The notes beneath the pieces are model-generated. The model saw only the letters and a list, made by a program, of their open reading frames with translations, was not told the DNA's origin and searched no databases. Positions 20,405 to 61,883 of a DNA stretch of 64,000 bases are shown piece by piece. Position 1 is the stretch's first letter, and each line of letters opens with the position of its first letter. The position numbers and the translations under genes were made by a program. The DNA is from Candidatus Doudnabacteria bacterium (GTDB lineage: Bacteria; Patescibacteriota; Doudnabacteria; UBA920), in assembly GCA_963837465.1 (NCBI GenBank), contig CAWINB010000001.1, forward strand, positions 369,929 through 433,928, read 5' to 3'.

Positions 20405-20435
20405 ATTGTCAAATTAATTTTAATTAAAAAACTAA

Positions 20436-39000: not shown

Positions 39001-39782
39001 TTGCCTAAAACCAATCCGGCCAGGAATTCCCCGTTCTGCCGCTGAGGCTCAGTCCCGGTTTCGGAAGGCAAATCAAAATTGGAAACAAAATTTTCCATTA
39101 ACGGCAACCGTTCGGCTGCCCGGGTCACCGCCGGCATGGCAATCGGAACGACCGCCGGAATTGAATTCTGAACCAAAGCTTGCTCCGCTTGGTCCGCGAT
39201 TTTTTTGGTCTTTTGTTCCGCCTCCGCCAAACCCCGTGACAGGGTATCAATACGGTTTTCAATATTTTCAAAAACCTCTTTTTTTAAATTGCTCAGCCGC
39301 ATAATTTGCTCCGGCAATTGCTGGACCGGTAATGCCGGTGCCGAACCAATAATATGCTGCTGGGGTGCTTGGACCTGCTGGTTATTCTGCCCGGACCCTG
39401 GCCGATCCAAACTTTGAATATTCGCTTGCTCGGAGGCAACGTGCACGGGGATTTTGTTTCCCGTCTCGTCCAGGACTTCGGAAATCCCATTTTTGTAATT
39501 TTTTATAAAATCATCCAAAGCCGCCCTGGTTGTTACCCAGTTCCGGCCCATTTTGAAACCCTTTAACTTGCCGGTTCTGCAAAGGAAACCAAGGTAGTCC
39601 TGATGGTAGTGGGTCAGCTTACTGGCCTCGGAAAGGGAAACAAAGTCAGATTGGTTTTGAGCCGGAAAAGGAGGCTGGAACGAAGCGCCGGTTGTCTGCC
39701 TGGAATCCGAAAAGCCCAATCCAATTTCCGTATGGTTTGGTTGGCTCGGGTTTTCTAAATTTTTATCTGTTTTTTCGTCCAC
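21077..39782 (-). CDS. giant (about 6,200 aa) type-II membrane surface protein: cytoplasmic excisionase-type HTH, single TM, extracellular collagen-like / tail-fibre-like / YVTN beta-propeller region, interrupted by at least four frameshifts
   Basis: The track ORFs 26466..39782 (4438 aa), 26096..26881, 25440..26129, 25183..25383, 24213..25031 and 21077..24427 carry the same repeat families (GNVGIGTTTP units, YVSGRYAYVAN blades) across their junctions. N-terminus: HTH LSEASKLTHYHQDYLGFLCRTGKLKGFKMGRNWVTTRAALDDFI, then a coiled coil, a TM LPLILATGIIALTGLVASVAW near aa 285 (positive-inside), the collagen-like stretch GAPGAQGPQGPAGAG, and KGFLAPRMTQAQRDAIASPAAGLLIFNTDTDQYNFFNGTAW. Confidence 0.7.
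25560..27830. repeat. imperfect tandem array of about 120-bp units (16 or more, each one YVTN beta-propeller blade), plus a roughly 370-bp segmental duplication
   Basis: The unit gatgtcaacgacggagatg...tttgccacataggcgtagcggccggagacgtagatggaa recurs with a roughly 120-bp period. The segment 25240..25610 matches 26510..27030 apart from indels. Confidence 0.75.
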
Positions 39783-45109: not shown

Positions 45110-45228
45110 TAACACGGATATACCGACGCGACGCGGATCTACGGACATCTACTGATTCTAAGAGCCTGGCGACATCCGTAGGCATCGGTAAATCCGTTTC
45201 TAATCCGTATATCCGCGTATATATATTT
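45110..45228. repeat. duplicated intergenic spacer, copy 1 (about 119 bp, runs from stop codon to start codon)
   Basis: The repeat reads taacacggatataccgacgcgacgcggatctacggacatctactgattctaagagcctggcgacatccgtaggcatcggtaaatccgtttctaatccgtatatccgcgtatatatattt and is followed directly by an ATG. Its ends are inverted repeats (cggatatacg / cgtatatccg). TATATAT sits 3 to 4 nt before the ATG. Confidence 0.8.
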
Positions 45229-45531
45229 ATGAGCAACGAAACACTCCATCCCAAAGAATTTCCGCCAATAACTCCGCCGCGAAACGGCGGCGGTACGGAT
45301 AATTTAAGCAAACAGCGGATTCAAAGCCTGGCGGTCCAAAGGAAGCAATGTTTGGAAGGAATCAAACCGGATATTTCCCGCAAGCTTTATTTTATGCTGG
45401 AAGAAAAGCTGGAAAAAGAACAAAAAAACCTGGAAGAAATTCTGGACTGGCAACAGGGAAAATTAAGCCGTCTGTCCAGGTACTCGCTGATTCTGGATTC
45501 GCATTATTTTGAACAGGAATTTTTAAGCTAA
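45229..45531 (+). CDS. hypothetical protein (100 aa)
   Basis: The ORF is bracketed exactly by the two copies of the duplicated spacer. It has a coiled-coil-like C-terminal half and no recognised family. Confidence 0.45.
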   Translation: MSNETLHPKEFPPITPPRNGGGTDNLSKQRIQSLAVQRKQCLEGIKPDISRKLYFMLEEKLEKEQKNLEEILDWQQGKLSRLSRYSLILDSHYFEQEFLS

Positions 45532-45653
45532 CACGGATATACCGACGCGACGCGACGCGGATCTACGGACATCTACTGATTCTAAGAGCCTGGCGACATC
45601 CGTAGGCATCGGTAAATCCGTTTCTAATCCGTATATCCGCGTAATATATATTT
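45529..45653. repeat. duplicated intergenic spacer, copy 2 (about 125 bp)
   Basis: It is near-identical to 45110..45228. It carries one extra gacgcg hexamer and one extra A. It again spans stop codon to start codon. Confidence 0.8.
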
Positions 45654-47053: not shown

Positions 47054-47866
47054 TTACTTCAGGGCCGCGTCAATTGCCTGTTCAAAAGTGGTCACGGGTT
47101 CGGCTCCAACTATAATTTGCCCGTTAACAAAGACGCTGGGGGTACCCGACACGCCGTAAGATTTACCGGCCGCGGTTTCCTTTGCGACCTCGGCCGCGTA
47201 TTTGCCGCTGTCCAAACATTGGTCAAACTGGGTGGTATTTAAGCCAAGGGTGGCCGCAAATTGTTTTTGGTGCACAGCCGTGGCCCAGCCAGTGTTTTCT
47301 TCCTGCTGGTTGTTGAACAAATAATCGTGATATTGCCAAAACTTGCCCTGGTCTTCGGCGCAATGAGCGGCCTCCGCGGCAGTGGTGGAATCGGCGCCCA
47401 AAAAAGCAAAATCCTGATAAACAAATTTAATTTTGCCGGTATCAACATATTTGGCTTTCAGTTCCGGCCAGACGGTTTTGTAAAACTCCTCGCAGAATGG
47501 GCACTGATAATCGGCAAATTCCACAACCGTCACTTTGGCTTTGTCATTGCCCAAATAGGGAGTATTGGGGGCTAAAGTAATGTTAACCGGACCAGCAGCC
47601 GCGGCCTGGGGAGCCGAAGGAGGGGTAACGGCCGAAGGAACGGCGGCGCTTTGAGCCTGCTGGCTTGACGCGAGCTGAGCAAAGCCTAAATTAAGATGCT
47701 TAAACAGCAAATTAAAATTATAAAATAAGCTGGCGGAAATTAAAACCGCGCCAAGCAGAAAACTGCCTGCTAAAATCCAGGTTTTCAAACCGACATTTTT
47801 ATTTTTTGCTTCCAAATTTAAATCCGCGCTGATATTTTGGTTTTTTTGATCCGGAGGATTATCCAT
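47054..47866 (-). CDS. membrane-anchored DsbA-like thiol:disulfide oxidoreductase
   Basis: It has a thioredoxin fold with CPFC (YQCPFCEEFYKTVWPEL) and an N-terminal TM anchor, following the DsbA/BdbD pattern. Confidence 0.75.
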   Translation of the reverse strand: MDNPPDQKNQNISADLNLEAKNKNVGLKTWILAGSFLLGAVLISASLFYNFNLLFKHLNLGFAQLASSQQAQSAAVPSAVTPPSAPQAAAAGPVNITLAPNTPYLGNDKAKVTVVEFADYQCPFCEEFYKTVWPELKAKYVDTGKIKFVYQDFAFLGADSTTAAEAAHCAEDQGKFWQYHDYLFNNQQEENTGWATAVHQKQFAATLGLNTTQFDQCLDSGKYAAEVAKETAAGKSYGVSGTPSVFVNGQIIVGAEPVTTFEQAIDAALK

Positions 47867-47946: not shown

Positions 47947-50900
47947 TTAAGACAAATTCTGCGGTATCACCAACTCATACCCTACCTTAAGCGTCTTGGT
48001 ATTGCCGGGGATGCTTAAACAACGGGGGTTGGCGGCCAGGATGGCTCTCCAGTTGGAGACGCTGCCCGTCAGCTTTTTGGCAATTCCCGACAGGGTGTCT
48101 CCTTTCTTAACCGTGTAAGTAGTGGAAGCCGACGAGGTAATAGAAGCTCCCTGGACCTGCGGCGATGGTTGCTGCGGATATTCCATCTGCAGTCCCTGGA
48201 AATTGGCCGGCATCTGCAAGCCCGTAAAGGGTTGGGTTACGGCCGCGCCAAGCACGGAAACACCGCCCGTTGCGTTGACTTGAATGCTAAACTGGCAACT
48301 ACTGCTTATGTTCAGCTGGTTGGTAACCTGGACAATAAAATTGTAGGTACCCGCTGTCGTAGGCGTGCCGGAAATTTGGCCGGTGGAAGTGTTAAAGTAA
48401 AGTCCCGGCGGCAAGGAACCGCTGATAAGGCTAAAGCTGGTGGAAGAAGCCCCTCCGACCAAAATATTGCTGTTGTAACCCTGGCCTAAATTAGCCTGGG
48501 GCAAAGAAGTGGTAAGGAAATAAGGATAGTAGGAAGTGCCGTAGCTATAACCATAACTGGTACCCGTCCCGCTGCCGGTTGATGTGCTGCCGGTTGAGCC
48601 GGTATTGCTTGTGCCGGAGTTACCGGAACTTGCGGCCGCGTTAATGGTAATCGTCAAGGGCACGGAACTGCTGACCAGGCCATTGCCATCGGTAACCCCC
48701 GCGTAAAAAGTATAACTGCCGGCTGTGGTTGGGGTGCCGCTTAAGCTGCCATTCTGGCTTAAAGTTAATCCCGGGGGCAAATTTCCGGTATAAGAGAATG
48801 TCAGGGCAGTGTTGCTGGAAGACGAAGCCTGCAAATTAGTGGTCGGGTAAGCCTGTCCAGCCGTGCCATTGGGTAATGATGTTGTGGTTAATACAGGCGG
48901 GGCAACAGCAGAAGCCCCTCCCGAGGCGGCAGCAGGATTAACAGTCAGGCTAAACTGGACTGAAGTAAAATTACCCAGGGAGTCCGTGGCCACAACCGAG
49001 AAACTACTGCTACCGGCCGTGGTTGGAGTGCCGCTGATAAGTCCGGAAGGGCTTAAAGTCAACCCGACCGGCAAGGTACTGCCGGTGGCCAGGGCGAATG
49101 TTATGGCTCCCGTGCCCGTGCCGGACAGGATATTTAACTGCTGGCTATAAGCAGTCCCCACAGTGGCGGCGGGAATGGAAGTCGTGGTGATAACCGGAGA
49201 GGCGGCAGTTCCGGTGGTTCCGGATGTCTGAGCAGCGGAAGACGCGGCGGGCACGGTTACGGAAAGAGCGTTGGAAAACAAAGTGGGATTAGCGCCATTG
49301 GCCACCTGTATTGTATATTGTCCGGCAGACAGGGCGCCATACAGTACCGTAATTTGGCTGTTATTGGCGGAAAGAATGCTTACCCCCATTACCTGGCCGG
49401 CGCTGTTGGTCATATGGACAATATCCGAGGTAGCGTTGGCGGCAAAGCCGCTGCCGGTAATTACTATCGTACCAGCCTGCTGGTTAATCGTGGCAAGGCT
49501 GATGGTGGGGGCAGCAGTGGAGCCGACAACCGCGGAACCTCCTGTTGAGCCTCCGGACGAGCCTGCAACGGTTGAAGCTACCAGCATACTCCATGGCAAA
49601 CTTACAGTATTACCGGCGCTGTCTGTAACAACCACCGTAAAACTGTAAGTGCCGGCTGTGACTGGAGTCCCGGTAATTGTTCCGTTGGCATTTATTGTAA
49701 GTCCAGGCGGAAAATTTCCGCTGCCGGAAAACTTATAGCCTGTACCGCTGCCGCCGACAGCGGAAAACTGCCCAACGTAGGCTACCCCAACCGTAGCCGT
49801 GGGAGTGGCCTGGCCGGTTATGAAAGAGAGGGTCGAAGATGTTGCGGCCGCTCTGCTGGCCTGTACGGTAAAATTTAAATTACCTATTGCCGTGGCCGAT
49901 GATTGAGAAGCACCCACGGACCAGGTTTCCGCCCATGCGCCAATATCAGCGGTTACCATCTGGCCGGATATAACCAAACTGCCCGACGCGGGTATGGTTC
50001 CATAATTGGTTGTCGATAACGCGCCCGCGTTTTGAGAGGCGCTGCCATAAACATTCAAACCAGCGGCACCGGTAATGGTAAGCTGCCAATTATCCCCTAC
50101 GGCCAAAGTGGCGGCATTGGCAGGCGATGTAAGATTGGCAAAAGTCAGGCTGGTGGCCGCGCTGCCCACTGTGGGTCCGTTCACAACAGTCGCTCCTGTA
50201 GTACCGCCGGTTCCGGATCCCGTGGTTGCTGCTGTGGATCCGTTAAGGGCGACCGGATTTGTGGTCGCGGTAGAAGATGGTTTGCCTATGTAATTGGTGG
50301 TGGAAACAAACGAGCCCGGTTGAGCATTAGGGTTGTCGTGATAATATTGAGCCGCGGCTATCTCGCTCTGTACAAATCCTGTAGCCACATTTGCCGGCGA
50401 GGTTACAAACCATTGGGCCAGGTTGCCGGCATTCATTTGGGTACCGTCGGGAAACTGGATCATCCACTGGCTGGCGCCGGCGGCATTGGCTTGGAACGGG
50501 CTGGCCGCAGTATAAGTGGTAATAGGGACCAGTACAGCCGTGCCGCCAAACTGCTGAGCCAGCCACTCGGCAGTTGCCTGGGTGGCATAGTTGGCAGGGT
50601 TAAGCGCCTGACTCTGTCCGGTTGGTAAATAAACTACGGCAGCATTGGTAATAAATGTCGGGGTAAAAGGAACGGTTGCGGGGCTGACTGTAAAATTAAG
50701 GGTATTGCCGACCTGCTTAAGGCTACTGATGCTTGGGTTACTGGGCGGTGTTGCGTTTGCGGCAAGAGAACTTCCAACCATAATGCTGACGCTCCAAGTG
50801 CCGACATCGTTATTTGTTAAAATCGGGCCCATGGTCTGCAAATTACCGTTGGCATCTGTTATTCCAAGGTAAATGGTTCCGTTTTGGTTGATACCATAAA

Positions 50901-53900
50901 CAGGCGCGTTGGGAGTGGCGCCGGTAACGTTAATCACCCAGTTATTTCCAACTCCTATGGTATTGCTGGAGGTGCCAAAGGTACTCATGGTCGCCGTAGA
51001 GCCGGTTACGGGAGTGCCGGTGGGGACTACCCCTTCGCTACCTGTAAGCGAAGGAGCGGCCGGAGAGGTGGCTGACTGCCCTAACTGCGGCGTTACGCTA
51101 AAATTCAGGGTGCCCGCGCTTACTGCCGAACTGCCGCTGGCAGCGCCAATTGTAAATTGCTCGCTCCAATTGCCTACTTGCTGATCGCCGACAGTTCCAG
51201 CCAATACCAACTTGCCGCCTTCAATAGTACCCATCTGGGTAGTAGTCTGGACACCATTTTGGATACTGGTGGCGAACACGGGAGTACCATCTTTAGTGCC
51301 GGCAGGAGCCGTAATAGTAATAGTCCAGTTATTGCCTACGGACAGGTTTGAATTATTGCCTGAGTCGGTGGAAAAACTAACATTGCTGCCCGAAGTACCG
51401 TTAACTACTGTAGGGGTAGCTTGGGCGCCGCTTGACGCAAGAGAATTATTAGCGGCTCCAAGTTGATTATAGGCCTGAACAAACAACTGAAAAACCGCCT
51501 GAGAGACCGGGGTCACGGTACCGGCATTATATGCCTGTAATTGAGAACTAAGACTGGCTAGATTTGAAGCCGTAATCGGCGGAATACCCGCTACCGAGTT
51601 ACCATTGGCATCAACAACAGTTACCGTCACGCTGCCGTTGCTGTTTTGGGTAATTTGGGTAGTAACACCTGCCGGGAGTGTTGCTGGGAGAGAAGGCGCG
51701 GTACCTATGGTACCGGACGACCCGCTCCCGGTGGCGCTGCCCACCGTACCCACGGTTAATTTCTGACTTTGTCCAATGCTGGCAATGGCCGATAAGGTGG
51801 CCTGGGAAATATTGGGATTAAGAGTGCCGTTAACGTAGCCTGAATAAGTGCCATTGGCGTTCTGGACGACCGTAACATCACCATTGATGGCGTTACCATT
51901 GGCATCTGTTCCTACATAAGCCAAAACTCCGGCAGTATTATTGACAGTGGAAGGAAATACTGTATATGGAGTGTTGTCGGTCACGCTACCGGCAGTAAGC
52001 GCGCTTTGGATTGCGGCAACTTGCGCGGCTGAAAATTGATTGGTAATATCAGCACCCGAAGAGTCTAAAATTCTTCCGGTGGAAGTTACGGTAAGAATTT
52101 GAGGTGTATTATTTACATTTATAGTTGCGGACAAACCTCCGCCAGAAACTTGAGTGACAGATGAACTAAGCGTAACAGTAGGATACGCAGTAGTGATGGA
52201 ACCAATACCACTAGCTCCAACAGTAACAGGCTGGCCGCTGGCAGTCGAGTAAGGGGAACCGCCGACCGGTACGTTGTAGTAAGGTGTACCATCGGAAAGA
52301 GTTCCGGCAGGAGTTAGATTTGCGTAAAGAAGCGGCTCGTCCCAGGAATTACTAGAAGCGTTGTAAGTCCATGTATTCCCGGAAGAATCCGTATAGGTTG
52401 CGCCATTGGCCGGGTTGGTTGGAAAAGTTGTTGAAGTTGCCGCAGTAACATTAACAGTCCGGCTTGTCGAAACTGTAGAGTCGTTCGGATCTGTATAGGT
52501 AATGATATAAGTGCCCGCGGGGGAACCGGCAGGGACAACGCCGCTGACCAAGGGAGTGCTACCATCGGAAATAGTGGCGTCGGGATCAGTAAAATACTGG
52601 CCGACAGTCAAGTTCATCACAGAATCACCATTTAATGTTATGGTGGGGGCGGCAGGGGCGGTAACAGTTACAGTCCTTGTTACTGGAGAAGCATTCGTAA
52701 AACTATAGGTAACGGTGTAAGTGCCTGGCTGACTAGTATTAACATTCCCGCTTCCTGTGATATCACTACTAATTTCATTGTCATTTTCATCATAGACGTT
52801 TGCGCCGGCATCCGCCCAAGTACCGCCTTGTTGAACCGTATCGTTGCCAGTATTTAATTTGATTGTGTAGGAAGCATCTTGGGTGGGGTCAGTAACATTA
52901 ACAGTCCGGCTTGTCGAAACTGTAGAGTCGTTCGGATCTGTATAGGTAATGATATAAGTGCCCGCGGGGGAACCGGCAGGGACAACGCCGCTGACCAAGG
53001 GAGTGCTACCATCGGAAATAGTGGCGTCGGGATCAGTAAAATACTGGCCGACAGTCAAGTTCATCACAGAATCACCATTTAATGTTATGGTGGGGGCGGC
53101 AGGGGCGGTAACAGTTACAGTCCTTGTTACTGGAGAAGCATTCGTAAAACTATAGGTAACGGTGTAAGTGCCTGGCTGACTAGTATTAACATTCCCGCTT
53201 CCTGTGATATCACTACTAATTTCATTGTCATTTTCATCATAGACGTTTGCGCCGGCATCCGCCCAAGTACCGCCTTGTTGAACCGTATCGTTGCCAGTAT
53301 TTAATTTGATTGTGTAGGAAGCATCTTGGGTGGGGTCAGTAACATTAACAGTCCGGCTTGTCGAAACTGTAGAGTCGTTCGGATCTGTATAGGTAATGAT
53401 ATAAGTGCCCGCGGGGGAACCGGCAGGGACAACGCCGCTGACCAAGGGAGTGCTACCATCGGAAATAGTGGCGTCGGGATCAGTAAAATACTGGCCGACA
53501 GTCAAGTTCATCACAGAATCACCATTTAATGTTATGGTGGGGGCGGCAGGGGCGGTAACAGTTACAGTCCTTGTTACTGGAGAAGCATTCGTAAAACTAT
53601 AGGTAACGGTGTAAGTGCCTGGCTGACTAGTATTAACATTCCCGCTTCCTGTGATATCACTACTAATTTCATTGTCATTTTCATCATAGACGTTTGCGCC
53701 GGCATCCGCCCAAGTACCGCCTTGTTGAACCGTATCGTTGCCAGTATTTAATTTGATTGTGTAGGAAGCATCTTGGGTGGGGTCAGTAACATTAACAGTC
53801 CGGCTTGTCGAAACTGTAGAGTCGTTCGGATCTGTATAGGTAATGATATAAGTGCCCGCGGGGGAACCGGCAGGGACAACGCCGCTGACCAAGGGAGTGC

Positions 53901-54717
53901 TACCATCGGAAATAGTGGCGTCGGGATCAGTAAAATACTGGCCGACAGTCAAGTTCATCACAGAATCACCATTTAATGTTATGGTGGGGGCGGTCGTGGT
54001 TTGAAGCGGGTCGTTCCAGGTATCAGTAGAAGCGTTGTAAGTCCATACAGTCCCGGAAGGATCAGTATAGGTATCACCATTGCTTGGATTGCTTGGAAAA
54101 TTTGCCAGATTGCTTTTACTAGTTCCTGTGCTAGGGTCAGTAGTCGTTACATCCAAAATCTGACTGTTGGGATCTGATGAAGCATAATAATTACCATCGG
54201 AGCCCAGGTAAACAGTGACTGCCGAGCCGTCACTGACATACCAAGCATTTGTAGGAGTGGTGCTAACGGTGACAGTATTAGGGTCAGTAGTTACACCGCC
54301 GCCATCCCCGCCGCCATCCCCGCCGCCGGAAGCGCCTTGGTCAGAAGCACCCGCGTCGCCGCTAGCGGCAAGCATCTCTTCTGCTTTAGCCTGCTTCGGG
54401 CCTATGGTATTTTGGTAAATGCCGCCGAAAATTTTATTTAACGTATCTTTTATTTTGGATGTGCGGGCTGTTTGCTCCTGGCTCTGCGTGCTGACAAACT
54501 GGGTATCCTGGGTTTTTGGCACTACTGCTCCAGCTCCCCCAAGCAGCGTAGCTCCCACGCCCAAGCCCGCGACCACTTTTTCCTGGGTTGTAATTTTTTT
54601 CTTATTTCGTTTTACGCGTTTTATTTTAACCTTATTCATGGGGTTTTTATAATGATTGGCTGGTGAATGTTTAGGCTCGTGCTTGCGAGTCTTCCCAGGA
54701 GGTTTTGTTTTAGGCAT
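47947..54717 (-). CDS. giant (2,256 aa) TM-anchored surface protein: basic cytoplasmic tail, single TM, tandem Ig-like (DUF5011-type and putative-Ig-type) domains, C-terminal LysM
   Basis: The N-terminus [17 protein letters not shown]...KRVKRNKKK is followed by the TM [19 protein letters not shown]. A 149-aa unit ([28 protein letters not shown]...[24 protein letters not shown] plus [69 protein letters not shown]) is repeated 3.5 times identically. Later regions such as [69 protein letters not shown] are putative Ig domains. The C-terminus is LysM: [31 protein letters not shown]...[10 protein letters not shown]. Confidence 0.85.
   Translation of the reverse strand: [2256 protein letters not shown]
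52440..54000. repeat. perfect tandem repeat, 447-bp unit x about 3.5
   Basis: Identical small ORFs recur in the track at a 447-bp period (52511/52958/53405 and 52879/53326/53773). The repeat lies inside the CDS and encodes two Ig-like domains per unit. Confidence 0.9.
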
Positions 54718-54787
54718 AGTTGTAATTTAGTATTTAAATTATACCATAAATCTTAATTTTGTATATAAACAGGATTAAAATTTACTT

Positions 54788-55770
54788 TTACCGCCACTCG
54801 CCGGAAATACTGTAGCGCAACGGGTGTTCCCATTGCCTCCATTGGGAGTAAAAATTCGCGGGCAGAAAGCCGGCGTCCGTTATTTCCTTAAAAACCGACA
54901 GGGTCAGCTTTTCCAAAAGCTCGTCGCACATATCCGTGCTTATAGCGGCGGCGCATTGCTCAACTAATTCCCTGTATGGCTTTAGCCCCGCTCTCTGCTT
55001 CGCCATAAGATACAAATTATGAGAGTCAAAAAAATAATTATGCCTCAAGCACAGCAATATCAAATTCAGCTTAACCAATTTGGCCCGCATAGGTATTATG
55101 CTCAAAGTATCTTTATAAGCCAAACGGCGGGCCAGGCGGGCCAGGATTTTCATCAGCTCCCAGCCGGTGAAAATAATTTTTTCTTTTAAAACTTCCGCCG
55201 GATAGCTGTTTAGGCGCTGTACCCTGCCGGGAAAAATATTTTTGGGGTCATACAAAGCGGCCGCTTCCGATAACGCGTGCAGTAAAAAATCGTTGTTCCA
55301 GGCCGCTTCCGAAAAAAGCGTTTCTTCCGGGTAGGAAAATGAAAAATCAATGGAATAGGCGTGCCAAAATTCGGCGGAGGCTTTCTGACATCCTGTTCGC
55401 GGGACCGCGAAAGCTGCGCCGGTAAAAATAAAAGCAGGTCGGCATCGCTGCCGATTATCATCTGTCCGCGCGCGGCCGAACCGTAAAGTATTAAAAGGCC
55501 TTGTCCGCGGGCAAAAGGCAATTTATCCAGCATTATCGGCACAAAAGATGCCTGAAGCGCTGCCGCAATTTCTTTTGAGGGTTTGCCGATAAAATCCGGG
55601 GCCTGAAAATTTAACATAGGATGTGGTTTAAAAAATAATTTCCGGCTGGCCGGTTTGGGAACAAATATTTTGTCGGATTTGCCGTCCATAAAATCTGCCG
55701 CGGTCCGGGCGATTTTTTTACCCGCTCGCCCAAGCTCCCCAGGCCGGCCATCGCTGTCCGCCATTGCCAA
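54788..55770 (-). CDS. nucleotidyltransferase-domain protein (Pol-beta superfamily, GlnE/DUF294-like) with an apparent frameshift near 55380..55400
   Basis: The upstream ORF (55210..55770) carries LYGSAARGQMIIGSDADLLLFLP, the GS...SDxD NTase motif, and then degenerates into junk. The downstream frame (54788..55255) is open much further upstream (..AEFWHAYSIDFSFSYPEETLFSEAAWNNDFLLHALSEAAALYDPKNIF) and is the plausible continuation. Confidence 0.55.
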
Positions 55771-55845: not shown

Positions 55846-57138
55846 CTACATCCCCGCCATCTGCCAAACTTTTGCCGCCACGTCGCGCGGTCGGCCCAGG
55901 AGCGGATCGTGGTGGAGGTTAATAAAAGGCAGGGAGTTGACTTCTATAAAGCCGCAAATCTGATTTTTGTAAGATTGGGCGATATCGGGAATAATAAAAT
56001 CAAATCCCACCAACGGATCGCCCAGGGCCCGGGCAGCCTGTTCAAACAGCTTAAGATTATCCGGATGGCAAACATCAAACTCCTCGGCGGACGAGCCGCC
56101 GTAATTAACGCCGATTTTTTCGGACAGGTTAACTGTTTCGCCCGCTTTTGGGACAGATTGCAAACCAAGGCCCTGCCTGGATAAAAATAATTCCGCGGCC
56201 TCATCGGTCGCGATATTTTTTACGCCCGGATGAAGCGCCTGGTTTTTAATATCCGCCAGTTGGCTTATTGTATTATTCCCGTCCCCCGTTATTGTCGGCG
56301 GATCGCCGCGCAATACTCCCACGGTTTCAAAATTAACCGCGGCGCCGCGGTAAACAGGACCGAAAATTTGCCGCTCTATTATTACCCAGTGGCACAGCTG
56401 CTTGGCAATTTTAAAAGCTTGCGCCAAATCTTTTTCCGTACGGACAAATGTCGTGGTATGGCGGCCGCGGCTGCCTGCCCGCGGTTTAACAATTACGGCT
56501 GACTGCTGACTGCTGACTGCTGACTGCTGGATTTCCCTAAAAATTTTCCTGGCCTGGCTGAAATTCGTTGCCGATCCCCCTTTGGGAACCGGCAAACCGC
56601 GCTCCATCATAATCTGTTTAAACAACCACTTGTCGTCCATCAAATCCAGCAAGGGATTGCTGTAGCCCTCCGGCCGCGGCAGTCCGCTAAAGAGAATCGT
56701 GGAGTCGGCAGCTGACAGCCGACGGCTGACGGCTGCGTACGTATCAAAGGGCTTTCCGAATATCAGCAGCTCGGACATTTTAATCCCCCGCTTATCCGCC
56801 TCCTCCCACAAAACCTGTGCCCGGCGGACGGCGCATTTGGTCCGGTCATTTTGCCGGCTGATAATCTTTAACCGCTCCGCGGCAGCCAACGCGGCCAGGG
56901 AAACTTTTTGGTCCCAGGCTTTTTTTTTAATATAGCCGGTAAAGCGATTGTACAATACTTTTTGCCGCAAAGGCGTAAGAAGGATATTCAGGCTTTCGTT
57001 GTACCAGTAAAGCCGGTGCGGCACCGGATTGTTGCCGCAAAACCGGCAGGCGGTTTTTAACCCAGTATTTTTTTTCTTTTGATCCATAAAAAGGCCGAAG
57101 CCGCCGCGATAAGCGACCCATAAATTATTAAAGTCCAC
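55846..57138 (-). CDS. ATP-grasp domain protein resembling the N-terminal/ATP-grasp half of cyanophycin synthetase (no Mur-ligase domain)
   Basis: NLSEKIGVNYGGSSAEEFDVCHPDNLKLFEQAARALGDPLVGFDFIIPDIAQSYKNQICGFIEVNSLPF resembles the CphA ATP-grasp C-terminal region. VIVKPRAGSRGRHTTTF is an ATP-grasp K-loop-like motif. The true start may be internal, since the first ATG overlaps the neighbouring gene. Confidence 0.6.
   Translation of the reverse strand: MDFNNLWVAYRGGFGLFMDQKKKNTGLKTACRFCGNNPVPHRLYWYNESLNILLTPLRQKVLYNRFTGYIKKKAWDQKVSLAALAAAERLKIISRQNDRTKCAVRRAQVLWEEADKRGIKMSELLIFGKPFDTYAAVSRRLSAADSTILFSGLPRPEGYSNPLLDLMDDKWLFKQIMMERGLPVPKGGSATNFSQARKIFREIQQSAVSSQQSAVIVKPRAGSRGRHTTTFVRTEKDLAQAFKIAKQLCHWVIIERQIFGPVYRGAAVNFETVGVLRGDPPTITGDGNNTISQLADIKNQALHPGVKNIATDEAAELFLSRQGLGLQSVPKAGETVNLSEKIGVNYGGSSAEEFDVCHPDNLKLFEQAARALGDPLVGFDFIIPDIAQSYKNQICGFIEVNSLPFINLHHDPLLGRPRDVAAKVWQMAGM
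56497..56526. repeat. heptanucleotide microsatellite (GACTGCT x4) inside the ATP-grasp CDS
   Basis: The sequence is gactgctgactgctgactgctgactgctgg. It encodes QQSAVSSQQSAV. The unit length is not a multiple of 3. Confidence 0.7.
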
Positions 57139-57478: not shown

Positions 57479-58891
57479 TTAATTACTGCTCCAGCTAATC
57501 TGCTGATAACCCGAAGACGACAAAGGAAAGCTCGGCGGCGGGGAATACAATAAATAAGAGTCGTAGTTCTCGTACGTATTGGTGTATCCCGATACCACCG
57601 GTCCGTTGGTGCTGTTTACCCAGTTCCAGGTCCAGGTAGTGTTGCTGGCCAGGGTGCCGTAAACTGTAATTGAATTTTTAAGGCTGCCGGGGTAGTACCA
57701 GAGCTGATCAGCGCCGTTTTGGGCAATAAGCGCGGCGTCAATTTCCAGATTATTGGGCGACTCGTAAGTTACCAGAATATTCTGCTGGCCGATAAGCCCC
57801 AAGGAATTGGTGCCATCTTTGACCGCGTAGACAATATTGTTGGGGATCATAATGTTCGGAGCGGTTAACGAGTTATAAGGCAGCATGGCGGCCGCCACCA
57901 TAACCCGCCCTTTAACCGTCCCCTCCACCCAAACATTGTCTTCAATATAAATAATACCGTTGGCGGGAATTGGTATATTGTAAAGCAGGGTCCGGTTCTG
58001 ATAATCCAGGCTGTTGGTATGCGCGTTGCCGCTGGTATCATAACCTTCCGGCTCCCCTGCCACCAGCGAAGTCACCTTGTAAACATTTACCGTGCCGTTA
58101 TTTTGGAAAACCAGGGAATAGCCCTGGGCGTTGGAAGGCGGTAAAAACAAGCCTCCGCTTTGGGCGCTGCTCTGCAGCGCGGCTAAATTGGCGGTAATGG
58201 AAGAAAAGTCGGTATTGGGTACCGGAAACTGCCAAAAATTCCGGGTTGAGGTTGCCGCGCTCCCCCAAATGCCGTTTTGGGTGGAAGGGCAGGGCGGACT
58301 GCCGTAAATAGCCGCTTCGCAAGTGTAGGTGCTTTTAGCGGACATAATAGGCGCGTTAGCCGTGCCGTCAAAACGGACACCCCCGTTTGTAAAATATTCA
58401 CCGCTGACACTCTCGGTGCTGCCGATCCAGTCGTCGCTGTTGGCCAAAAACGCGTACTGGGCCAAGGAAGGAATGCCGTAGAGTACTGTAACCGTACGCG
58501 CGGCTTGCGGATCCGCCAGGGTGTAACCGGTGGACCGCACGGCGGTTATGGTTGAGCCAATGCTTGGCGGAGTAATAGTCAGGCTGAACCGGCCAATGGT
58601 TTGGCCGGTGCTCTGGTCCACGTAATTATGGACATACGGTCCGGGGGTGGTACTGGCGTTACCGTCCCAAAAATCAGAGGGAAAATTGGCCAGGTGCCAT
58701 TCATAATAATTAGTCCCGGCTTCGGCAATCTGAAAAGCCTGGTCGCTGGCAATGGTACTCCTGGTCACTCGCAATTCCAGGCTGGCCGAACTGAGCAATC
58801 CCACCATAACCAGGCTGAAAATAAAAATCATGATCACCATGTAGATGAGGATGGAGCCGGATTGGGGTTTTTCATTTAAGCATTTAAGCAT
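57479..58891 (-). CDS. PilX-like minor pilin / pilus tip-associated protein
   Basis: The N-terminal hydrophobic helix followed by SSASLELRVTRS matches the PilX_N pattern (..SSLELRMAGN). The 470-aa size and position in the minor-pilin operon fit the call. Confidence 0.6.
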   Translation of the reverse strand: MLKCLNEKPQSGSILIYMVIMIFIFSLVMVGLLSSASLELRVTRSTIASDQAFQIAEAGTNYYEWHLANFPSDFWDGNASTTPGPYVHNYVDQSTGQTIGRFSLTITPPSIGSTITAVRSTGYTLADPQAARTVTVLYGIPSLAQYAFLANSDDWIGSTESVSGEYFTNGGVRFDGTANAPIMSAKSTYTCEAAIYGSPPCPSTQNGIWGSAATSTRNFWQFPVPNTDFSSITANLAALQSSAQSGGLFLPPSNAQGYSLVFQNNGTVNVYKVTSLVAGEPEGYDTSGNAHTNSLDYQNRTLLYNIPIPANGIIYIEDNVWVEGTVKGRVMVAAAMLPYNSLTAPNIMIPNNIVYAVKDGTNSLGLIGQQNILVTYESPNNLEIDAALIAQNGADQLWYYPGSLKNSITVYGTLASNTTWTWNWVNSTNGPVVSGYTNTYENYDSYLLYSPPPSFPLSSSGYQQISWSSN

Positions 58892-58918
58892 AATAGCATT
58901 TAAGCATTATGGCACCGG
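58872..58918. repeat. left arm of the roughly 40-bp imperfect inverted repeat bracketing the four-helix-bundle cassette
   Basis: tcatttaagcatttaagcataatagcatttaagcattatggcaccgg pairs with the reverse complement of 59358..59398 (ccggtgctcccatgcttagatgcttctatgcttaaatgccc). It overlaps the first codons (MLKCLNE) of the PilX-like gene. Confidence 0.65.
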
Positions 58919-58955
58919 AACATTTAGCGTAGAAGCATCAAAGTATGAAAACATT

Positions 58956-59333
58956 CTAAGAGGTTGCCTCTTTAGATTTTTTAATGGCCTCAACTGCTTT
59001 CCAAAGCATTGCGCCTATTTCTTCCGACATTTGAAATCCCTCATTATATTCTTCCTCAGTTATCCAGTTCTCTTTAAAAGCAAAATAAAGAAGATACTTT
59101 GATTCCTTTAATGAACCGTAAGAAATTTCCCAAAAATTTATTTTTACCGCCAATCTTTGTCTGGCGTAACCTTCTATGAAATTCAAAATGACGGACAAAG
59201 TCGCTCTCCTAAATTGCGAATTTGCTCCATATAACTCTTCCTTAGGAAATTTTCTTGTAATTTTATACACGAGATGCGTATAAGTATCCATTTTATTTTT
59301 TAATGAATCTAAAAATGAGTCATTCTTTGCCAT
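58956..59333 (-). CDS. four-helix-bundle protein (23S rRNA intervening-sequence protein family)
   Basis: YKITRKFPKEELYGANSQFRRATLSVILNFIEGYARQR matches the family pattern ([26 protein letters not shown]). The protein is 125 aa. Confidence 0.8.
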   Translation of the reverse strand: MAKNDSFLDSLKNKMDTYTHLVYKITRKFPKEELYGANSQFRRATLSVILNFIEGYARQRLAVKINFWEISYGSLKESKYLLYFAFKENWITEEEYNEGFQMSEEIGAMLWKAVEAIKKSKEATS

Positions 59334-59357
59334 GCCATTTGTTTAAATGATTGTATA

Positions 59358-59398
59358 CCGGTGCTCCCATGCTTAGATGCTTCTATGCTTAAATGCCC
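59358..59398. repeat. right arm of the inverted repeat bracketing the four-helix-bundle cassette
   Basis: See the left arm at 58872..58918. Confidence 0.65.
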
Positions 59399-59405
59399 TA
59401 TGAAT

Positions 59406-60041
59406 CTAACTACCCAAATTTGTCTTTAAATTCCTGATTGCCGCGCTGGAGGTTACCGTGTAAGTGTTGGTGTCCTTTACCCCGGCTTTATTGTAAATCT
59501 GGAGCAGGACTTTAACAAACTTAACCTGGGTAACGTTGACCGGCTGGACGAGTGAGGCCTGGGTAGTGGAGCCGGTATAAGCGCCATCATAATAATAAAA
59601 TACCGGACTTAAACCGTTGGCCAGGTCTTTTTGCACCACGTAAGTTGTTTCCGTGGAAGTGTTGTAAGTGCTGCCGTTATAGCTGGTCAGGCCTTCCCAC
59701 AGCTGATTATTCTGAGTAAAGTACCTGATTCTTTCCACAGCCGGATTGTTATTGATGGTGGAGTAAAAAATAATCTGCTGGGCGGCCGCGGTGTCCAAAA
59801 CATAAGCGCCGTTGCTGCCGGTTTGGGCGTTGCGGAGCTGGCTGGTTATGTTAAAAGCCAGCGCTCTGGCCTGGTCGCTGTCGCTTAAAAGGCCGGCCTG
59901 CCGGTTGCCGTAAAAAAAGACACGGGCGACCAAGCCTATCATGCCCCAGGCAATAAGGCTGAAACCTAAAATCACCACCATGATTTCCACCAAAGTAAAT
60001 CCCGACTGTTTTTGATTCTTAATTCTGTATTCTATATTCAT
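59406..60041 (-). CDS. type IV pilin-like protein (minor pilin)
   Basis: QSGFTLVEIMVVILGFSLIAWG is a prepilin cleavage/methylation motif. Confidence 0.75.
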   Translation of the reverse strand: MNIEYRIKNQKQSGFTLVEIMVVILGFSLIAWGMIGLVARVFFYGNRQAGLLSDSDQARALAFNITSQLRNAQTGSNGAYVLDTAAAQQIIFYSTINNNPAVERIRYFTQNNQLWEGLTSYNGSTYNTSTETTYVVQKDLANGLSPVFYYYDGAYTGSTTQASLVQPVNVTQVKFVKVLLQIYNKAGVKDTNTYTVTSSAAIRNLKTNLGS

Positions 60042-60050
60042 AATTCTTAT

Positions 60051-61883
60051 TTATGGGCTCATTAACACCGTCAGCGGCGGCTGGTCGGCGCTAATGCTGA
60101 GCGGAATATTGCTCTGGGTTTGATAACCGGCCATGGAAACGGTAACGCTGTAATTATTGCCGGCGGTTAAGCCGGTAAAAATTACCTGGCCCGGGGTGAA
60201 GCAGCCGGTAACAAAATTGGCCGCCACCGAAGTTAACACCGGCGTTTTAGCCGGGTCTTGGCTTGACAAAAAAACCTTATAGCGAAAATAACGGTTGCTG
60301 TTTAAGCTTGGACCTATGTCCTGCCCAGGGGTAGTAAAATAAGTATTGGCGGTACCGTCGGGGCCGACGTAATTCCAGGTAGCATTGTCGTTATTGGCCG
60401 CCACCTGAAAGGCCAGGCTGGTGGAAGCGCTTTGTGAAGAAGGCAGCCAGGTCAAAATTGTATAATCAGTCTGGCCGGTTCCGGTATCAAAAGTGGAAGA
60501 TTCCAAAGTGCCGGTGGCCGTTACATAACTGCCGCCGACCTGGTTTAAAACCACGCTGCCGGGATTGGTAACGTTAACATTACCGTTGTCCTGGAAATAC
60601 TGGTTGGGGGTGGTGGTGCCGAACGAAGAAGCGCCGCTGCCGCCACTCCAGTCATTCTGGGTCCAAACGCTGCCGCCTGTAAAAAGCGTTTCCAAAGGAG
60701 CCAATCCCCGCGAAAGCGTTACCGAAGCGTTTTCCAAAGCTGTGCCGCTGGAAGCATCCTTAACTATGACCAATAAATTGTTCGGCGTGGGACTGGTGCC
60801 CAAGATTATTGTAAAGGTCTGGGCAGTAGCGGGCAAAACCGAAACTTGCTGGACAGGCGAAGTGCCGAACACCACCCACGGCTGGCCGGTCAGCAAAACC
60901 GGAGTGTAAGTATCCCACTCAATGTTGTTTAAATTAATAACGCCGCCGGACGAAGAAAAATTTTGGCTGTACTTATACAACCCGCTGCCCGGAGGCGTAG
61001 TAGTGGCCGCGCCGATAAGTTTTGAACCCGTGACATTAACATTTACTCCGCTTAAGGCATTGCAGGTGGAATCCAGAGTTTTAATATTCAAGTTAGCCAA
61101 CCGGTCGATGGAAAGCGTCAGCTGGGTTATGGTGCCGGTGGCTACGGTCGCGTCGGGATGGATGGGATTGGGATTTTGCGGGGTTATCGGGTAGGTCTGG
61201 TCGGTAGAATAACCAGGCTCCGTGGCCACAATACGGTAATCATTGACAGCGGCCGGCAGGCCGACTTCCGTAACCTGACCGCTGCCGTTGCTGGTATCGG
61301 GCAAATCGTAGGTATACGGGCTGGTGGTGGGATAGGTAATTGTCACCGAAGCTCCCTGCAGATACTGGCCCTGGGAATTAATCACGTTAACCTGCAGGGC
61401 GCCTGTATTCGGGTTGGTAATAAGTCCCTTGGGAGAGACTGTGGTTAAAAAATCAGTCACTTGCCCGGAAGAAGTATTTAAAATACTCATTTTTACCTGT
61501 TTGTAATCCGGCGTACCCGTGGCCGTATCAGCAGCGTCGTGCACATAGCTGACTTTGTAATAAATATCGTAGGTATAAGGCCCTATGGTCTGGCTGACGG
61601 CATTGGGCAAATCCGGCAATTGGCCGCTTGGATTGCCCTCCAAAGTGCCAACCTGGCTGTAGGGCATGTTGCGCGCAATTTCCAGATAATTGGTGGCTAG
61701 GCTGGAAAGGATAATTTTTTCCCGGGCCTTTTTCACCGATTGCCCAAGGACGGCAAAACTGGCCAGCATAGCCGTGGCCAAAAGGGCAAAAATAAACAGA
61801 GTGACCAGGAGTTCCATAAGGGTAAATCCTGAATGACTTTTGCCGGACTTTGGTTTAAAAAAATAGCTTAAAAATTTAGTCAT
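60051..61883 (-). CDS. large (610 aa) prepilin-type protein (PilV/PilY-like minor pilin or tip adhesin)
   Basis: HSGFTLMELLVTLFIFALLATAML is a prepilin motif. The long Thr/Ser/Gly-rich beta-type C-terminal region is consistent with a pilus-associated adhesin. Confidence 0.7.
   Translation of the reverse strand: MTKFLSYFFKPKSGKSHSGFTLMELLVTLFIFALLATAMLASFAVLGQSVKKAREKIILSSLATNYLEIARNMPYSQVGTLEGNPSGQLPDLPNAVSQTIGPYTYDIYYKVSYVHDAADTATGTPDYKQVKMSILNTSSGQVTDFLTTVSPKGLITNPNTGALQVNVINSQGQYLQGASVTITYPTTSPYTYDLPDTSNGSGQVTEVGLPAAVNDYRIVATEPGYSTDQTYPITPQNPNPIHPDATVATGTITQLTLSIDRLANLNIKTLDSTCNALSGVNVNVTGSKLIGAATTTPPGSGLYKYSQNFSSSGGVINLNNIEWDTYTPVLLTGQPWVVFGTSPVQQVSVLPATAQTFTIILGTSPTPNNLLVIVKDASSGTALENASVTLSRGLAPLETLFTGGSVWTQNDWSGGSGASSFGTTTPNQYFQDNGNVNVTNPGSVVLNQVGGSYVTATGTLESSTFDTGTGQTDYTILTWLPSSQSASTSLAFQVAANNDNATWNYVGPDGTANTYFTTPGQDIGPSLNSNRYFRYKVFLSSQDPAKTPVLTSVAANFVTGCFTPGQVIFTGLTAGNNYSVTVSMAGYQTQSNIPLSISADQPPLTVLMSP

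What the first reader, a model, noticed from the sequence alone, without database searches (positions are those of the whole stretch)
47947..54717. 2,256-aa TM-anchored Ig-repeat protein with C-terminal LysM and three perfectly identical 447-bp repeats
The architecture is a basic cytoplasmic tail, one TM, tandem DUF5011-like Ig domains, putative-Ig (He_PIG-like) domains and a terminal LysM domain (YTVKKGDTLSGIAKKL...). A C-terminal LysM on an N-terminally anchored giant suggests the protein can reach and bind peptidoglycan of another cell, possibly a host bacterium. The 100 percent identity of the three 149-aa units (52440..54000) means very recent expansion, or a collapsed array whose true copy number is unknown.
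Basis: partly seen in the sequence, partly recalled or inferred. Interest (0 to 1): 0.65.

Follow-up and report, generated by a model that had tools for sequence, protein, structure and literature searches.

The report
Variable-length LysM surface fibre of Patescibacteria
This is a real gene from an ultra-small, probably symbiotic bacterium (Patescibacteria) for a very long cell-surface fibre that is anchored in the membrane at one end, carries a peptidoglycan-binding LysM domain at the other, and contains a freshly amplified block of identical repeats; it belongs to an unnamed protein family that always sits next to pilus genes and is a reasonable candidate for cell-to-cell attachment.

Summary
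ORF 47947..54717 (minus strand) encodes 2,256 aa. It has a basic tail, one hydrophobic segment, 7 DUF5011 (PF16403) domains, 4 He_PIG, one IPT/TIG and a C-terminal LysM above Pfam's cutoff. Bases 52443..53993 are 3×447 + 210 nt, with no mismatch and in frame.

New here: the protein belongs to an unannotated family found only in Patescibacteria MAGs (28 genome loci). Two ends define the family: a conserved N-terminal leader (M[DN]KVKIKRVKR..KK…AGLGVGG, 69% identity) and a GLQMP–LysM C-terminus (24 of 28 members). The middle is shuffled (14–23% identity).

The gene lies in a conserved cluster: three pilin-like genes, an ATP-grasp gene, one to three paralogous giants, then a DsbA-like gene. The DUF5011 cassette is nearly unique to this member. 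Other members carry their own in-frame near-perfect repeats, so intragenic amplification recurs, as in Periscope proteins.

Two further modules have no Pfam family: an Ig/macroglobulin-like β-sandwich and a small α/β domain with no PDB match.

Repeat number could not be checked, because no reads and no close relatives are available.

The parts
47947..54717 (-). Whole gene, 2,256 aa plus stop codon
   Evidence: An identical protein, P0001, is on record from a 699,532-bp contig.
54738..54765 (-). Promoter-like site, TATACA-16 nt-TG-TATAAT, ending 21 nt before the ATG
   Evidence: consensus scan only; sequence read.
54577..54717 (-). Basic N-terminal tail, aa 1-47 (17 K+R, 3 H, 2 D+E). It includes the family-invariant motif M27-x-K-V-K-I-K-R-V-K-R-N-K-K-K.
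54520..54576 (-). Glycine-rich hydrophobic segment, aa 48-66 (VVAGLGVGATLLGGAGAVV). Predicted signal-anchor or TM helix.
   Evidence: Kyte-Doolittle mean 1.92, the only 19-mer window above 1.6 outside this segment's neighbours. Aligned residues 27-66 are 69% identical across the family.
54373..54519 (-). Conserved juxtamembrane stretch, aa 67-115 (..TQFV.TQ...SKIK..L..IFG....AKA)
   Evidence: 45% identity across the family. No Pfam or NCBIfam hit.
54003..54104 (-). Flank motif W1 (aa ~205-238, FPSNPSNGDTYTDPSGTVWTYNASTDTWNDP)
   Evidence: 81%-identical 102-nt direct repeat with 52329-52430 (family D18); protein-level match.
52443..53993 (-). Perfect tandem array of 3 x 447 nt + 210 nt (aa 243-759), giving DUF5011 domains A-B-A-B-A-B-A
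52329..52430 (-). Flank motif W2 (aa ~763-796, FPTNPANGATYTDSSGNTWTYNASSNSWDEP)
   Evidence: D18. Weak phiSA1p31 hit, E 0.009-0.05, below cutoff.
51451..52328 (-). Region aa 797-1089 with no family assignment. It contains a thrice-repeated strand-plus-helix module ending in '..L..QLQ.YN..'.
   Evidence: Internal 26% repeat. Homologous stretch in P0091. No Pfam hit.
51103..51450 (-). NW domain copy 1 (aa 1090-1205), an unnamed beta-sandwich
50743..51075 (-). NW domain copy 2 (aa 1215-1325)
50293..50754 (-). YAT domain (aa 1322-1475), a small alpha/beta domain of unknown fold family
49873..50244 (-). NW domain copy 3 (aa 1492-1615)
49543..49860 (-). He_PIG domain 1 (aa ~1620-1725)
49234..49515 (-). 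IPT/TIG domain (aa 1735-1828)
   Evidence: PF01833, 24.7 bits against cutoff 20.9, on the isolated segment.
48913..49230 (-). He_PIG domain 2 (aa ~1830-1935)
48583..48900 (-). He_PIG domain 3 (aa ~1940-2045)
48268..48534 (-). He_PIG domain 4 (aa ~2062-2150)
   Evidence: best stretch 2070-2148.
48124..48267 (-). Linker with two GLQMP/GLQME motifs (aa 2151-2198), conserved in the family
47959..48123 (-). LysM domain (aa 2199-2253)
   Evidence: Pfam 28.3 bits against 20.9. PDB sequence hits to Ecp6, Kbp, a phage LysM protein, LytN and LytE.
47054..47866 (-). DsbA-like thioredoxin gene directly downstream, syntenic in about 20 related loci
55846..57138 (-). ATP-grasp-like gene upstream, syntenic in about 19 related loci
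57479..61883 (-). Pilin-like gene block upstream: PilX_N protein (470 aa), a bAvd-like 125-aa protein, an N_methyl pilin (211 aa) and an N_methyl + CarboxypepD_reg pilin (610 aa). The block is syntenic in related loci.

Best explanation
The ORF is a genuine gene of a Patescibacteria (CPR) bacterium. It encodes a rod-like cell-surface protein of a lineage-specific, so far unnamed family.

Shown: the family has a conserved N-terminal leader (basic motif plus a Gly-rich hydrophobic segment) and a conserved C-terminal GLQMP-LysM module. The middle is freely shuffled and consists mostly of beta-sandwich 'stalk' domains. The gene has a fixed place in a cluster ordered pilin-like genes, ATP-grasp, giant(s), DsbA.

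Inferred: the leader is an uncleaved signal-anchor. The basic tail stays in the cytoplasm and about 2,190 residues (roughly 16 beta-sandwich domains plus one small alpha/beta domain) lie outside. The 447-bp cassette (two DUF5011 domains) was amplified very recently by unequal recombination or slippage between identical copies. Because it is in frame, it can keep changing in number. That would lengthen or shorten the membrane-proximal part of the stalk, in the manner of Periscope proteins.

The LysM domain binds peptidoglycan. I lean towards the cell's own wall, so that the two conserved ends fix the protein (membrane plus wall) and the variable middle is what the outside world sees. The fibre would then act as a close-range adhesin or coat element during the pilus-mediated contact that these bacteria make with other cells.
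For: Gene and repeat. Domains.

Family and taxon: 28 loci, all Patescibacteria MAGs, were found with the leader alone. Leader core residues 27-66 are 69% identical, LysM 52% and the middle 14-23%. LysM occurs in 24 of 28 full-length members, He_PIG in 8 and DUF5011 in 2.

Synteny: PilinBig-Pilin211-PilX-ATPgrasp-[variable]-giant x1-3-DsbA on one strand in most loci, with flanking proteins only 40-69% identical.

Recurrent in-frame near-perfect repeats of different modules occur in other members: L014 273 nt x 2.7 at 99%, L016 312 nt x 2.0 at 100%, L026 330 nt x 1.9 at 100%, and P0123 with 138/180-aa units.

A signal-anchor is more likely than a cleaved signal peptide. The residues after the hydrophobic segment are mostly '..AV[A/S]PKP', with Pro at +1 of any AxA-like site (inference from the known specificity of signal peptidase I).

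Literature: LysM is listed among anchor domains of fibrillar adhesins (PMC8286594). Highly identical long repeats drive length variation in Periscope proteins (PMC8201768). In Saccharibacteria, pili are proposed to bring cells together so that 'close-proximity adhesins' can bind (PMC12206443).
Against: No experiment or expression data exists for any member. Topology rests on hydropathy and the positive-inside rule only. A membrane anchor is present in all members, so a second anchor looks redundant, which favours LysM as a ligand-binding tip (the rival reading). A mere membrane-to-wall tether would not need about 2,000 residues of stalk. Repeat-number variation, the defining behaviour of Periscope proteins, could not be tested. 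Synteny with pilin genes may partly reflect shared ancestry of these genomes and not a functional link. The 100% identity could be inflated by consensus polishing of a repeat.
Confidence: 0.4

Rival explanations
1. Reach-out adhesin. The N-terminal leader is the only anchor and the Ig-like domains form a stalk tens of nanometres long. The C-terminal LysM is then the distal tip that binds exposed peptidoglycan (or another GlcNAc polymer) on a host or neighbouring cell. The amplifiable DUF5011 cassette next to the anchor tunes how far the tip projects.
For: The layout follows the usual grammar of fibrillar adhesins: anchor, stalk, tip (PMC8286594). The repeat array lies at the anchor-proximal end, as in Periscope proteins (PMC8201768). 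The membrane anchor is universal in the family, so LysM is not needed for retention. All relatives are Patescibacteria, whose cultivated members are episymbionts (PMC12206443). The gene sits in a conserved cluster with pilin-like genes.
Against: In characterised bacterial proteins LysM overwhelmingly binds the producer's own wall (established knowledge; solved examples LytE and LytN). Hosts of these environmental lineages are unknown, and a Gram-negative host's peptidoglycan is covered by an outer membrane, yet LysM is kept in 86% of members. During Sec export the C-terminus emerges last, at the membrane face beneath the cell's own wall, where LysM meets own peptidoglycan first (inference).
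Confidence: 0.3
2. Pilus-associated factor. The giant is functionally part of the type IV pilus system encoded next to it. It could be a peptidoglycan-binding brace for the machine (as the LysM proteins FimV and TsaP are in diderm bacteria). Or it could be a PilY1-like adhesin delivered by the minor pilins.
For: Conserved order of pilin-like genes, ATP-grasp, giant and DsbA across loci whose proteins are only 40-69% identical. LysM proteins are known partners of type IV pilus machines (papers listed, e.g. PMC12918733, abstracts only). PilX2 and PilY1 adhesins are encoded with minor pilins (PMC12206443).
Against: The giant has no prepilin (N_methyl) motif, vWA domain or beta-propeller. An ATP-grasp gene and 0-5 kb of variable genes separate it from the pilin genes. 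It has its own promoter-like site. One to three shuffled paralogues per locus is unlike a fixed machine component.
Confidence: 0.1
3. Surface coat or S-layer-like protein. The family forms the outer protein layer seen on CPR cells, fixed to both membrane and wall. The paralogue arrays and repeat changes would provide surface variation against phages or predators.
Confidence: 0.08
4. The repeat is partly an assembly product. The gene is real, but the number of units (3.5) and/or their perfect identity come from assembly or polishing of a repeat longer than the reads.
For: A 1,551-nt perfect array cannot be resolved by short reads (general knowledge; PMC8201768 stresses the need for long reads). 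No independent sequence of this gene exists in any collection searched.
Against: The array lies inside a 699.5-kb contig and is in frame with clean borders. An assembler that collapses repeats would more likely give 1-2 units or break the contig. Shorter perfect repeats occur in relatives from independent assemblies.
Confidence: 0.2

Closest known systems
Periscope proteins (SasG/Aap, Rib, Esp, Sgo_0707; PMC8201768)
   Same: A bacterial surface protein with a tandem array of long (>50 aa) folded domains that are near-identical at the DNA level. The units are in frame and placed next to the anchor, so unit gain or loss would change how far the rest projects.
   Different: The anchor is an N-terminal membrane segment, not a C-terminal LPXTG. 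The unit is a two-domain DUF5011 cassette. The organism is a Patescibacterium. Strain-to-strain number variation, which defines the class, is not shown here.
Fibrillar adhesins (stalk + adhesive domain + anchor; PMC8286594, PMC9210967)
   Same: A long string of Ig-like stalk domains (DUF5011, He_PIG, TIG and an unnamed beta-sandwich) with attachment modules at the ends.
   Different: No recognised adhesive domain is present. The only non-stalk modules are LysM and an alpha/beta domain of unknown fold. LysM is normally counted as the anchor, yet here it lies opposite the membrane anchor.
Inverse autotransporters (intimin, invasin, YeeJ; PMC5595812)
   Same: N-terminal anchoring, Ig-like repeats running outward towards the C-terminus, and a LysM domain that binds peptidoglycan.
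   Different: In those proteins LysM is at the anchored N-terminus in the periplasm and the anchor is an outer-membrane beta-barrel. Here there is no barrel and LysM is at the far C-terminus.
LysM-retained wall proteins of Gram-positive bacteria (AcmA, Sle1, LytE, LytN)
   Same: A C-terminal or repeated LysM holds a secreted protein on the producer's own peptidoglycan. The LysM here is sequence-related to LytE and LytN.
   Different: Those proteins are small hydrolases with cleaved signal peptides. This one has no catalytic domain, a retained membrane segment and about 2,000 residues of stalk.
FimV/HubP, TsaP and PilY1/PilX2 (type IV pilus partners)
   Same: These are LysM-bearing or adhesin proteins functionally and genomically tied to type IV pili. 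The giant likewise sits beside pilin-like genes in every related locus.
   Different: No sequence or architectural homology to any of them was found. The link here is gene neighbourhood only.

Membership tests
LysM domain (PF01476) | Match to the family HMM above the curated gathering score | tested here: met
   28.3 bits against cutoff 20.9, residues 2201-2252, full model 1-43. PDB sequence hits to Ecp6 (E 8.7e-8), Kbp, a phage LysM protein, LytN and LytE.
LysM domain (PF01476) | Beta-alpha-alpha-beta fold and binding of GlcNAc-containing glycans (peptidoglycan, chitin) | not testable with these tools
Binding needs biochemistry.
Bact_surface_Ig-like / DUF5011 (PF16403) | HMM match above cutoff, in tandem copies | tested here: met
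   224.4 bits against cutoff 27, 7 stretches. Best outside relatives are DUF5011 proteins at 35-43% identity.
He_PIG (PF05345) | HMM match above cutoff | tested here: met
   126.3 bits against cutoff 24, 4 stretches.
IPT/TIG (PF01833) | HMM match above cutoff | tested here: met
   24.7 bits against cutoff 20.9 for isolated residues 1735-1828. Not reported when the whole protein was scanned.
Periscope proteins | [quoted passage not shown] | tested here: met
   149-aa units, 100% identical at the DNA level, 3.5 copies. Surface location is predicted only.
Periscope proteins | Different repeat numbers in the same gene of closely related strains | not testable with these tools
   No close relative exists in any collection. 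The cluster has 1 member, the next best hit is 35% identical on DUF5011 only, and two metagenome scans were empty.
Fibrillar adhesins | Stalk of repeated Ig-like domains plus a recognised adhesive domain | tested here: inconclusive
   The stalk is present. No known adhesive Pfam domain was found. The YAT domain has no Pfam hit and no PDB fold match.
Gram-positive extended signal peptides (YSIRK, KxYKxGKxW) | Match to the signal-motif HMMs | tested here: not met
   The leader alone gives no Pfam hit and no relevant NCBIfam hit even at E <= 1. It resembles them only in style: a long basic n-region and a Gly-rich core.
Type IV pilins / pseudopilins | N-terminal methylation (prepilin peptidase) motif PF07963 | tested here: not met
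   Absent from the giant but present in the neighbours 59406-60041 and 60051-61883.
Inverse autotransporters | IAT beta-barrel with N-terminal LysM | tested here: not met
   No IAT_beta hit, and LysM is C-terminal.
S-layer proteins with SLH anchoring | SLH domain | tested here: not met
   No SLH hit in this protein or in 28 family members.
Unnamed Patescibacteria 'KVKIKR-leader / LysM' family (defined here) | Leader M[DN]KVKIKRVKR..KK..T.KEK.LAGLGVG..L.GG at the N-terminus | tested here: met
   Invariant M27, V30, I32, R34, K36, K47, A50, G53, L58 and G60 across 28 members. tblastn identity to the loci is 39-67%.
Unnamed Patescibacteria 'KVKIKR-leader / LysM' family (defined here) | GLQMP-LysM C-terminus and position between ATP-grasp/pilin genes and a DsbA-like gene | tested here: met
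   The C-terminus is 41-64% identical to the loci. LysM occurs in 24 of 28 members. Synteny.

The most novel reading that the evidence does not exclude
The conserved 'KVKIKRVKRNKKK + Gly-rich core + ..IFG..AKA' leader would be a previously unrecognised, lineage-specific sorting or anchoring signal recognised by dedicated machinery. It would mark a whole repertoire of Patescibacteria surface proteins. The LysM tip of these proteins would bind the peptidoglycan of the host cell. On this reading the family would be the 'close-proximity adhesin' that locks these episymbionts onto their hosts after pilus retraction, and cassette amplification would tune the reach.
Probability: 0.2. Interest if true: 0.75.

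Novelty: new variant of a known kind. Interest (0 to 1): 0.45.

Why it matters
How Patescibacteria (a large share of bacterial diversity, mostly obligate episymbionts) recognise and hold on to partner cells is largely unknown beyond type IV pili.

This finding gives a concrete and easily recognisable candidate family. It has a 40-residue leader motif that retrieves members from any genome. It also has a near-universal peptidoglycan-binding end, a fixed position beside pilin-like genes, and visible ongoing repeat amplification.

The work also flags three sequence modules without any database family: the leader, the NW beta-sandwich and the YAT alpha/beta domain.

If LysM targets host walls, it would suggest a simple and testable attachment mechanism and a hint about host type (exposed peptidoglycan). 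If it targets the cell's own wall, the family is a doubly anchored, variable surface display system. Either way the general kind of protein (long Ig-repeat surface fibre with identical repeats) is familiar, so the advance is moderate and not fundamental.

Tried and rejected
1. Exact look-up of the protein's encoding contigs found nothing on record, although the identical protein P0001 exists. Its cluster has one member and no name or accession, so the source organism's name could not be obtained.

2. The whole-protein homology search was swamped by unrelated DUF5011 proteins from other phyla (35-43% identity over about 23% of the query). True relatives appeared only after the DUF5011 and He_PIG parts were removed from the query.

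3. A profile search with the leader alone against the 5.8-billion-protein set returned only short contig-end fragments. It was useless for a census. The census was made instead from 28 genome loci.

4. I looked for close relatives to compare repeat number. An exact 30-mer of the unit in metagenome contigs gave 0 hits. A protein-guided scan gave 177 pattern hits, none confirmed.

6. The DUF5011 array searched against PDB sequences gave no hit.

7. Two literature searches for this family or for LysM surface proteins in Saccharibacteria/Doudnabacteria found nothing specific. A third, for giant surface proteins and host attachment in Patescibacteria, found nothing specific but listed the Saccharibacteria pilus paper PMC12206443.

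8. Rejected readings:
- Pilin or pilus subunit: no N_methyl motif.
- Inverse autotransporter: no barrel.
- SLH S-layer protein: no SLH domain.
- Phage tail fibre or mobile element: the locus is syntenic across divergent chromosomes.
- Diversity-generating retroelement target: a bAvd-like gene lies nearby, but no reverse transcriptase or template/variable repeat pair turned up among the ORFs scanned or in the repeat scan. Not all ORFs were scanned.

9. Taxonomy look-ups did not resolve whether the lineage is Saccharibacteria or Doudnabacteria. The record labels disagree, so only 'Patescibacteria' is claimed.
Full report
**Observation.** The window has a single long ORF at 47947..54717 on the minus strand, 2,256 codons from ATG to stop. 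Tandem Repeats Finder reports 52443..53993 as 3.5 copies of a 447-nt unit with 100% matches and no indels. A direct comparison confirms three full units and a 210-nt partial unit without a single difference. The identity ends abruptly at both borders. Since 447 = 3 x 149, changes in unit number keep the frame. The array has 48.3% G+C, against 52.6% for the rest of the gene and 49.1% for the window. A promoter-like site (TATACA, 16 nt, TG-TATAAT) ends 21 nt before the start codon.

**Anatomy of the protein.**
- Pfam assigns seven PF16403 (DUF5011-type Ig-like) stretches, four He_PIG stretches and a full-length LysM at residues 2201-2252. LysM scores 28.3 bits against a cutoff of 20.9.
- NCBIfam adds only a sub-threshold match to the LysM protein model PRK11198.
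- An isolated segment, residues 1735-1828, passes the IPT/TIG cutoff.
- Hydropathy shows one strongly hydrophobic segment, residues 48-66 (mean 1.92). It follows a tail with 17 Lys+Arg and only 2 acidic residues. By the positive-inside rule this predicts N-in/C-out.
- Self-comparison shows that each 149-aa unit holds two different DUF5011 domains, so the array reads A-B-A-B-A-B-A.
- The array is bracketed by two copies of a 34-residue motif (..GDTYTDPSGTVWTYNAS..W..). Their DNA is an 81%-identical 102-nt direct repeat.
- Further along there are three copies of an unnamed ~110-aa module ('NW', VGNNWxIxItG…VGxWxExWxVG) and one ~150-aa module ('YAT', FTPTF…YATxxTAxWLAQxFGG…FPDGTxMNAGxLA). Neither has a Pfam or NCBIfam family.
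- The C-terminal 106 residues match solved LysM proteins by sequence: Ecp6, Kbp, a phage LysM protein, LytN and LytE.

**Relatives.** The identical protein is on record once, from a 699,532-bp contig, without a name. All other hits to the full protein are unrelated DUF5011 proteins of other phyla at 35-43% identity.
- With the DUF5011 and He_PIG parts removed, true relatives appear: P0091 and P0121-P0125.
- They share the N-terminal ~110 residues (45-55% identity), parts of the NW/YAT region, and a C-terminal GLQMP-LysM module.
- A scan of one genome per species with the leader alignment retrieved 28 loci. Every one is from a Patescibacteria MAG, labelled Candidatus Saccharibacteria, Candidatus Doudnabacteria or 'Patescibacteria group'. 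The class is not resolved. The window's own genome is not among the representatives.
- Across 28 full-length members, the leader core (residues 27-66) is 69% identical to ours, the juxtamembrane stretch 45%, LysM 52% and the middle only 14-23%.
- Pfam finds LysM in 24 of 28 members, He_PIG in 8 and DUF5011 in 2.
- The family is therefore defined by its two ends, and the DUF5011 cassette is a rare, lineage-specific insert.
- The leader has no match in Pfam or NCBIfam, even at E <= 1.
- An exhaustive HMMER search with residues 763-1625 found 270 proteins at E <= 0.001 but only 7 at E <= 1e-30. NW also occurs in many short proteins with a C-terminal membrane segment. YAT also occurs as stand-alone 105-160-aa proteins.

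**Genomic context.** In the window the gene is preceded, on the same strand, by:
- a 610-aa and a 211-aa protein with prepilin N-methylation motifs;
- a bAvd-like 125-aa protein;
- a 470-aa PilX_N protein;
- an ATP-grasp-like protein;
- a nucleotidyltransferase remnant.

It is followed by a DsbA-like thioredoxin, then by VirD4/TraG-like and ClpB-like genes on the other strand.

The same order recurs in nearly all related loci with enough flank: PilinBig, Pilin211, PilX, ATP-grasp, 0-5 kb of variable genes, one to three leader-bearing giants, DsbA. The flanking proteins are only 40-69% identical to ours. Many loci have two or three tandem paralogues. The window has one.

**Repeat behaviour in the family.** Five of about 35 members contain internal repeats of at least 50 residues at 80% identity or more, each with a different unit (91, 104, 110, 138/180 and 149 aa). 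At the DNA level the related loci show in-frame arrays of:
- 273 nt x 2.7 at 99% (L014);
- 312 nt x 2.0 at 100% (L016);
- 330 nt x 1.9 at 100% (L026);
- 285 nt x 2.8 at 85% (L006).

Independent assemblies thus show the same habit. This argues that recent intragenic amplification is biological and recurrent. It matches the sequence criterion used to define Periscope proteins (>50 aa, >=80% identity; PMC8201768). The behavioural criterion, different numbers in close strains, cannot be tested, because no close relative exists in any collection and no reads are available.

**Mechanism.**
- Shown: the domain content, the conserved ends, the taxon, the synteny and the perfect in-frame array.
- Inferred: the leader is a signal-anchor. 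Any AxA-like site after the hydrophobic core is mostly followed by Pro, which signal peptidase I does not accept.
- Inferred: the roughly 16 beta-sandwich domains form an extended stalk tens of nanometres long.
- Inferred: unit gain and loss by recombination between identical copies changes stalk length.
- Inferred: LysM binds peptidoglycan.
- Open: whose peptidoglycan. I lean to the cell's own wall, at roughly 45% against 30% for a host's wall. The reasons are that this is what bacterial LysM usually does, that own wall is always at hand while a Gram-negative host's wall is covered, that LysM is kept in 86% of members across a broad lineage, and that the C-terminus leaves the Sec channel beneath the cell's own wall.
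- The position beside pilin-like genes fits the model proposed for Saccharibacteria, in which pili bring cells together and close-range adhesins then bind (PMC12206443). That link is by neighbourhood only.

**Comparison and novelty.** The protein works like a Periscope-type fibrillar surface protein, but with inverted polarity (N-terminal membrane anchor) and a LysM at the far end. It is not a pilin, an inverse autotransporter or an SLH S-layer protein, since the defining modules are absent. The family, its leader motif and the NW and YAT modules are not described in the libraries searched, and sources call the members 'hypothetical protein'. I rate it a new variant of a known kind. It is of moderate interest as a concrete and testable candidate for cell-surface interaction in Patescibacteria.

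Noticed in passing
window 45124-45219 and 45548-45643: A perfect 96-nt direct repeat brackets the small ORF 45229-45531 (+), which lies between the ClpB-like and TraG/VirD4-like genes (family D17). Homologues of the small ORF sit at the same place in L005 and L022.
   Followed up: no
window 26466-39782 (-) and 24213-26881: A second giant ORF of 4,438 aa has LVIVD beta-propeller repeats and many internal repeats. The ORFs just downstream of it (lower coordinates) carry 129-nt periodic LVIVD units. They also carry a 109-nt stretch that is 99% identical between 25335-25443 and 26749-26857 (D1 and D16). This looks like a duplicated C-terminal cassette or gene fragment.
   Followed up: partly
window 58956-59333 (-); L001 1-179; L025 4379-4741: A bAvd-like / 23S rRNA IVS four-helix-bundle protein is embedded in the pilin-like gene block. 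It recurs at a similar place in related loci. No reverse transcriptase or template/variable repeat pair was noticed.
   Followed up: partly
window 54788-55255 and 55210-55770 (-): Two overlapping ORFs both match one 269-aa NTP_transf_2/Polbeta gene of L001 (4801-5610), which suggests a frameshifted or split nucleotidyltransferase gene directly upstream of the giant.
   Followed up: no
window 48124-48267 (aa 2151-2198); family members in L003-L016: A short 'GLQMP' motif occurs in 1-3 copies just before LysM in most family members, and L2167 is nearly invariant. Its role is unknown. It could be a linker, a processing site or a modification site.
   Followed up: no
window 49873-51450 (NW) and 50293-50754 (YAT); proteins P0133-P0272: The NW beta-sandwich also occurs in about 140 mostly short proteins that end in a membrane segment plus Arg-Arg. 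The YAT domain also occurs as stand-alone 105-160-aa proteins without a signal peptide. Neither has a Pfam family.
   Followed up: partly
window 14804-20975: A separate type IV pilus block is present: PilC-like T2SSF with a C-terminal SH3 domain (16502-17995), PilB-like ATPase (18170-19822), a response regulator (19896-20267) and three N_methyl pilin-like genes (14804-15307, 15405-15851, 20436-20975).
   Followed up: no
window 1515-2435 (-): A Mutator-family transposase gene is present. It is the only obvious mobile-element gene seen and lies far from the finding.
   Followed up: no
L014 5939-6613: A perfect 342-nt x 2.0 in-frame tandem repeat lies in a different gene of the variable stretch between the ATP-grasp gene and the giant. 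Repeat amplification is therefore not confined to the leader-bearing genes in these loci.
   Followed up: no
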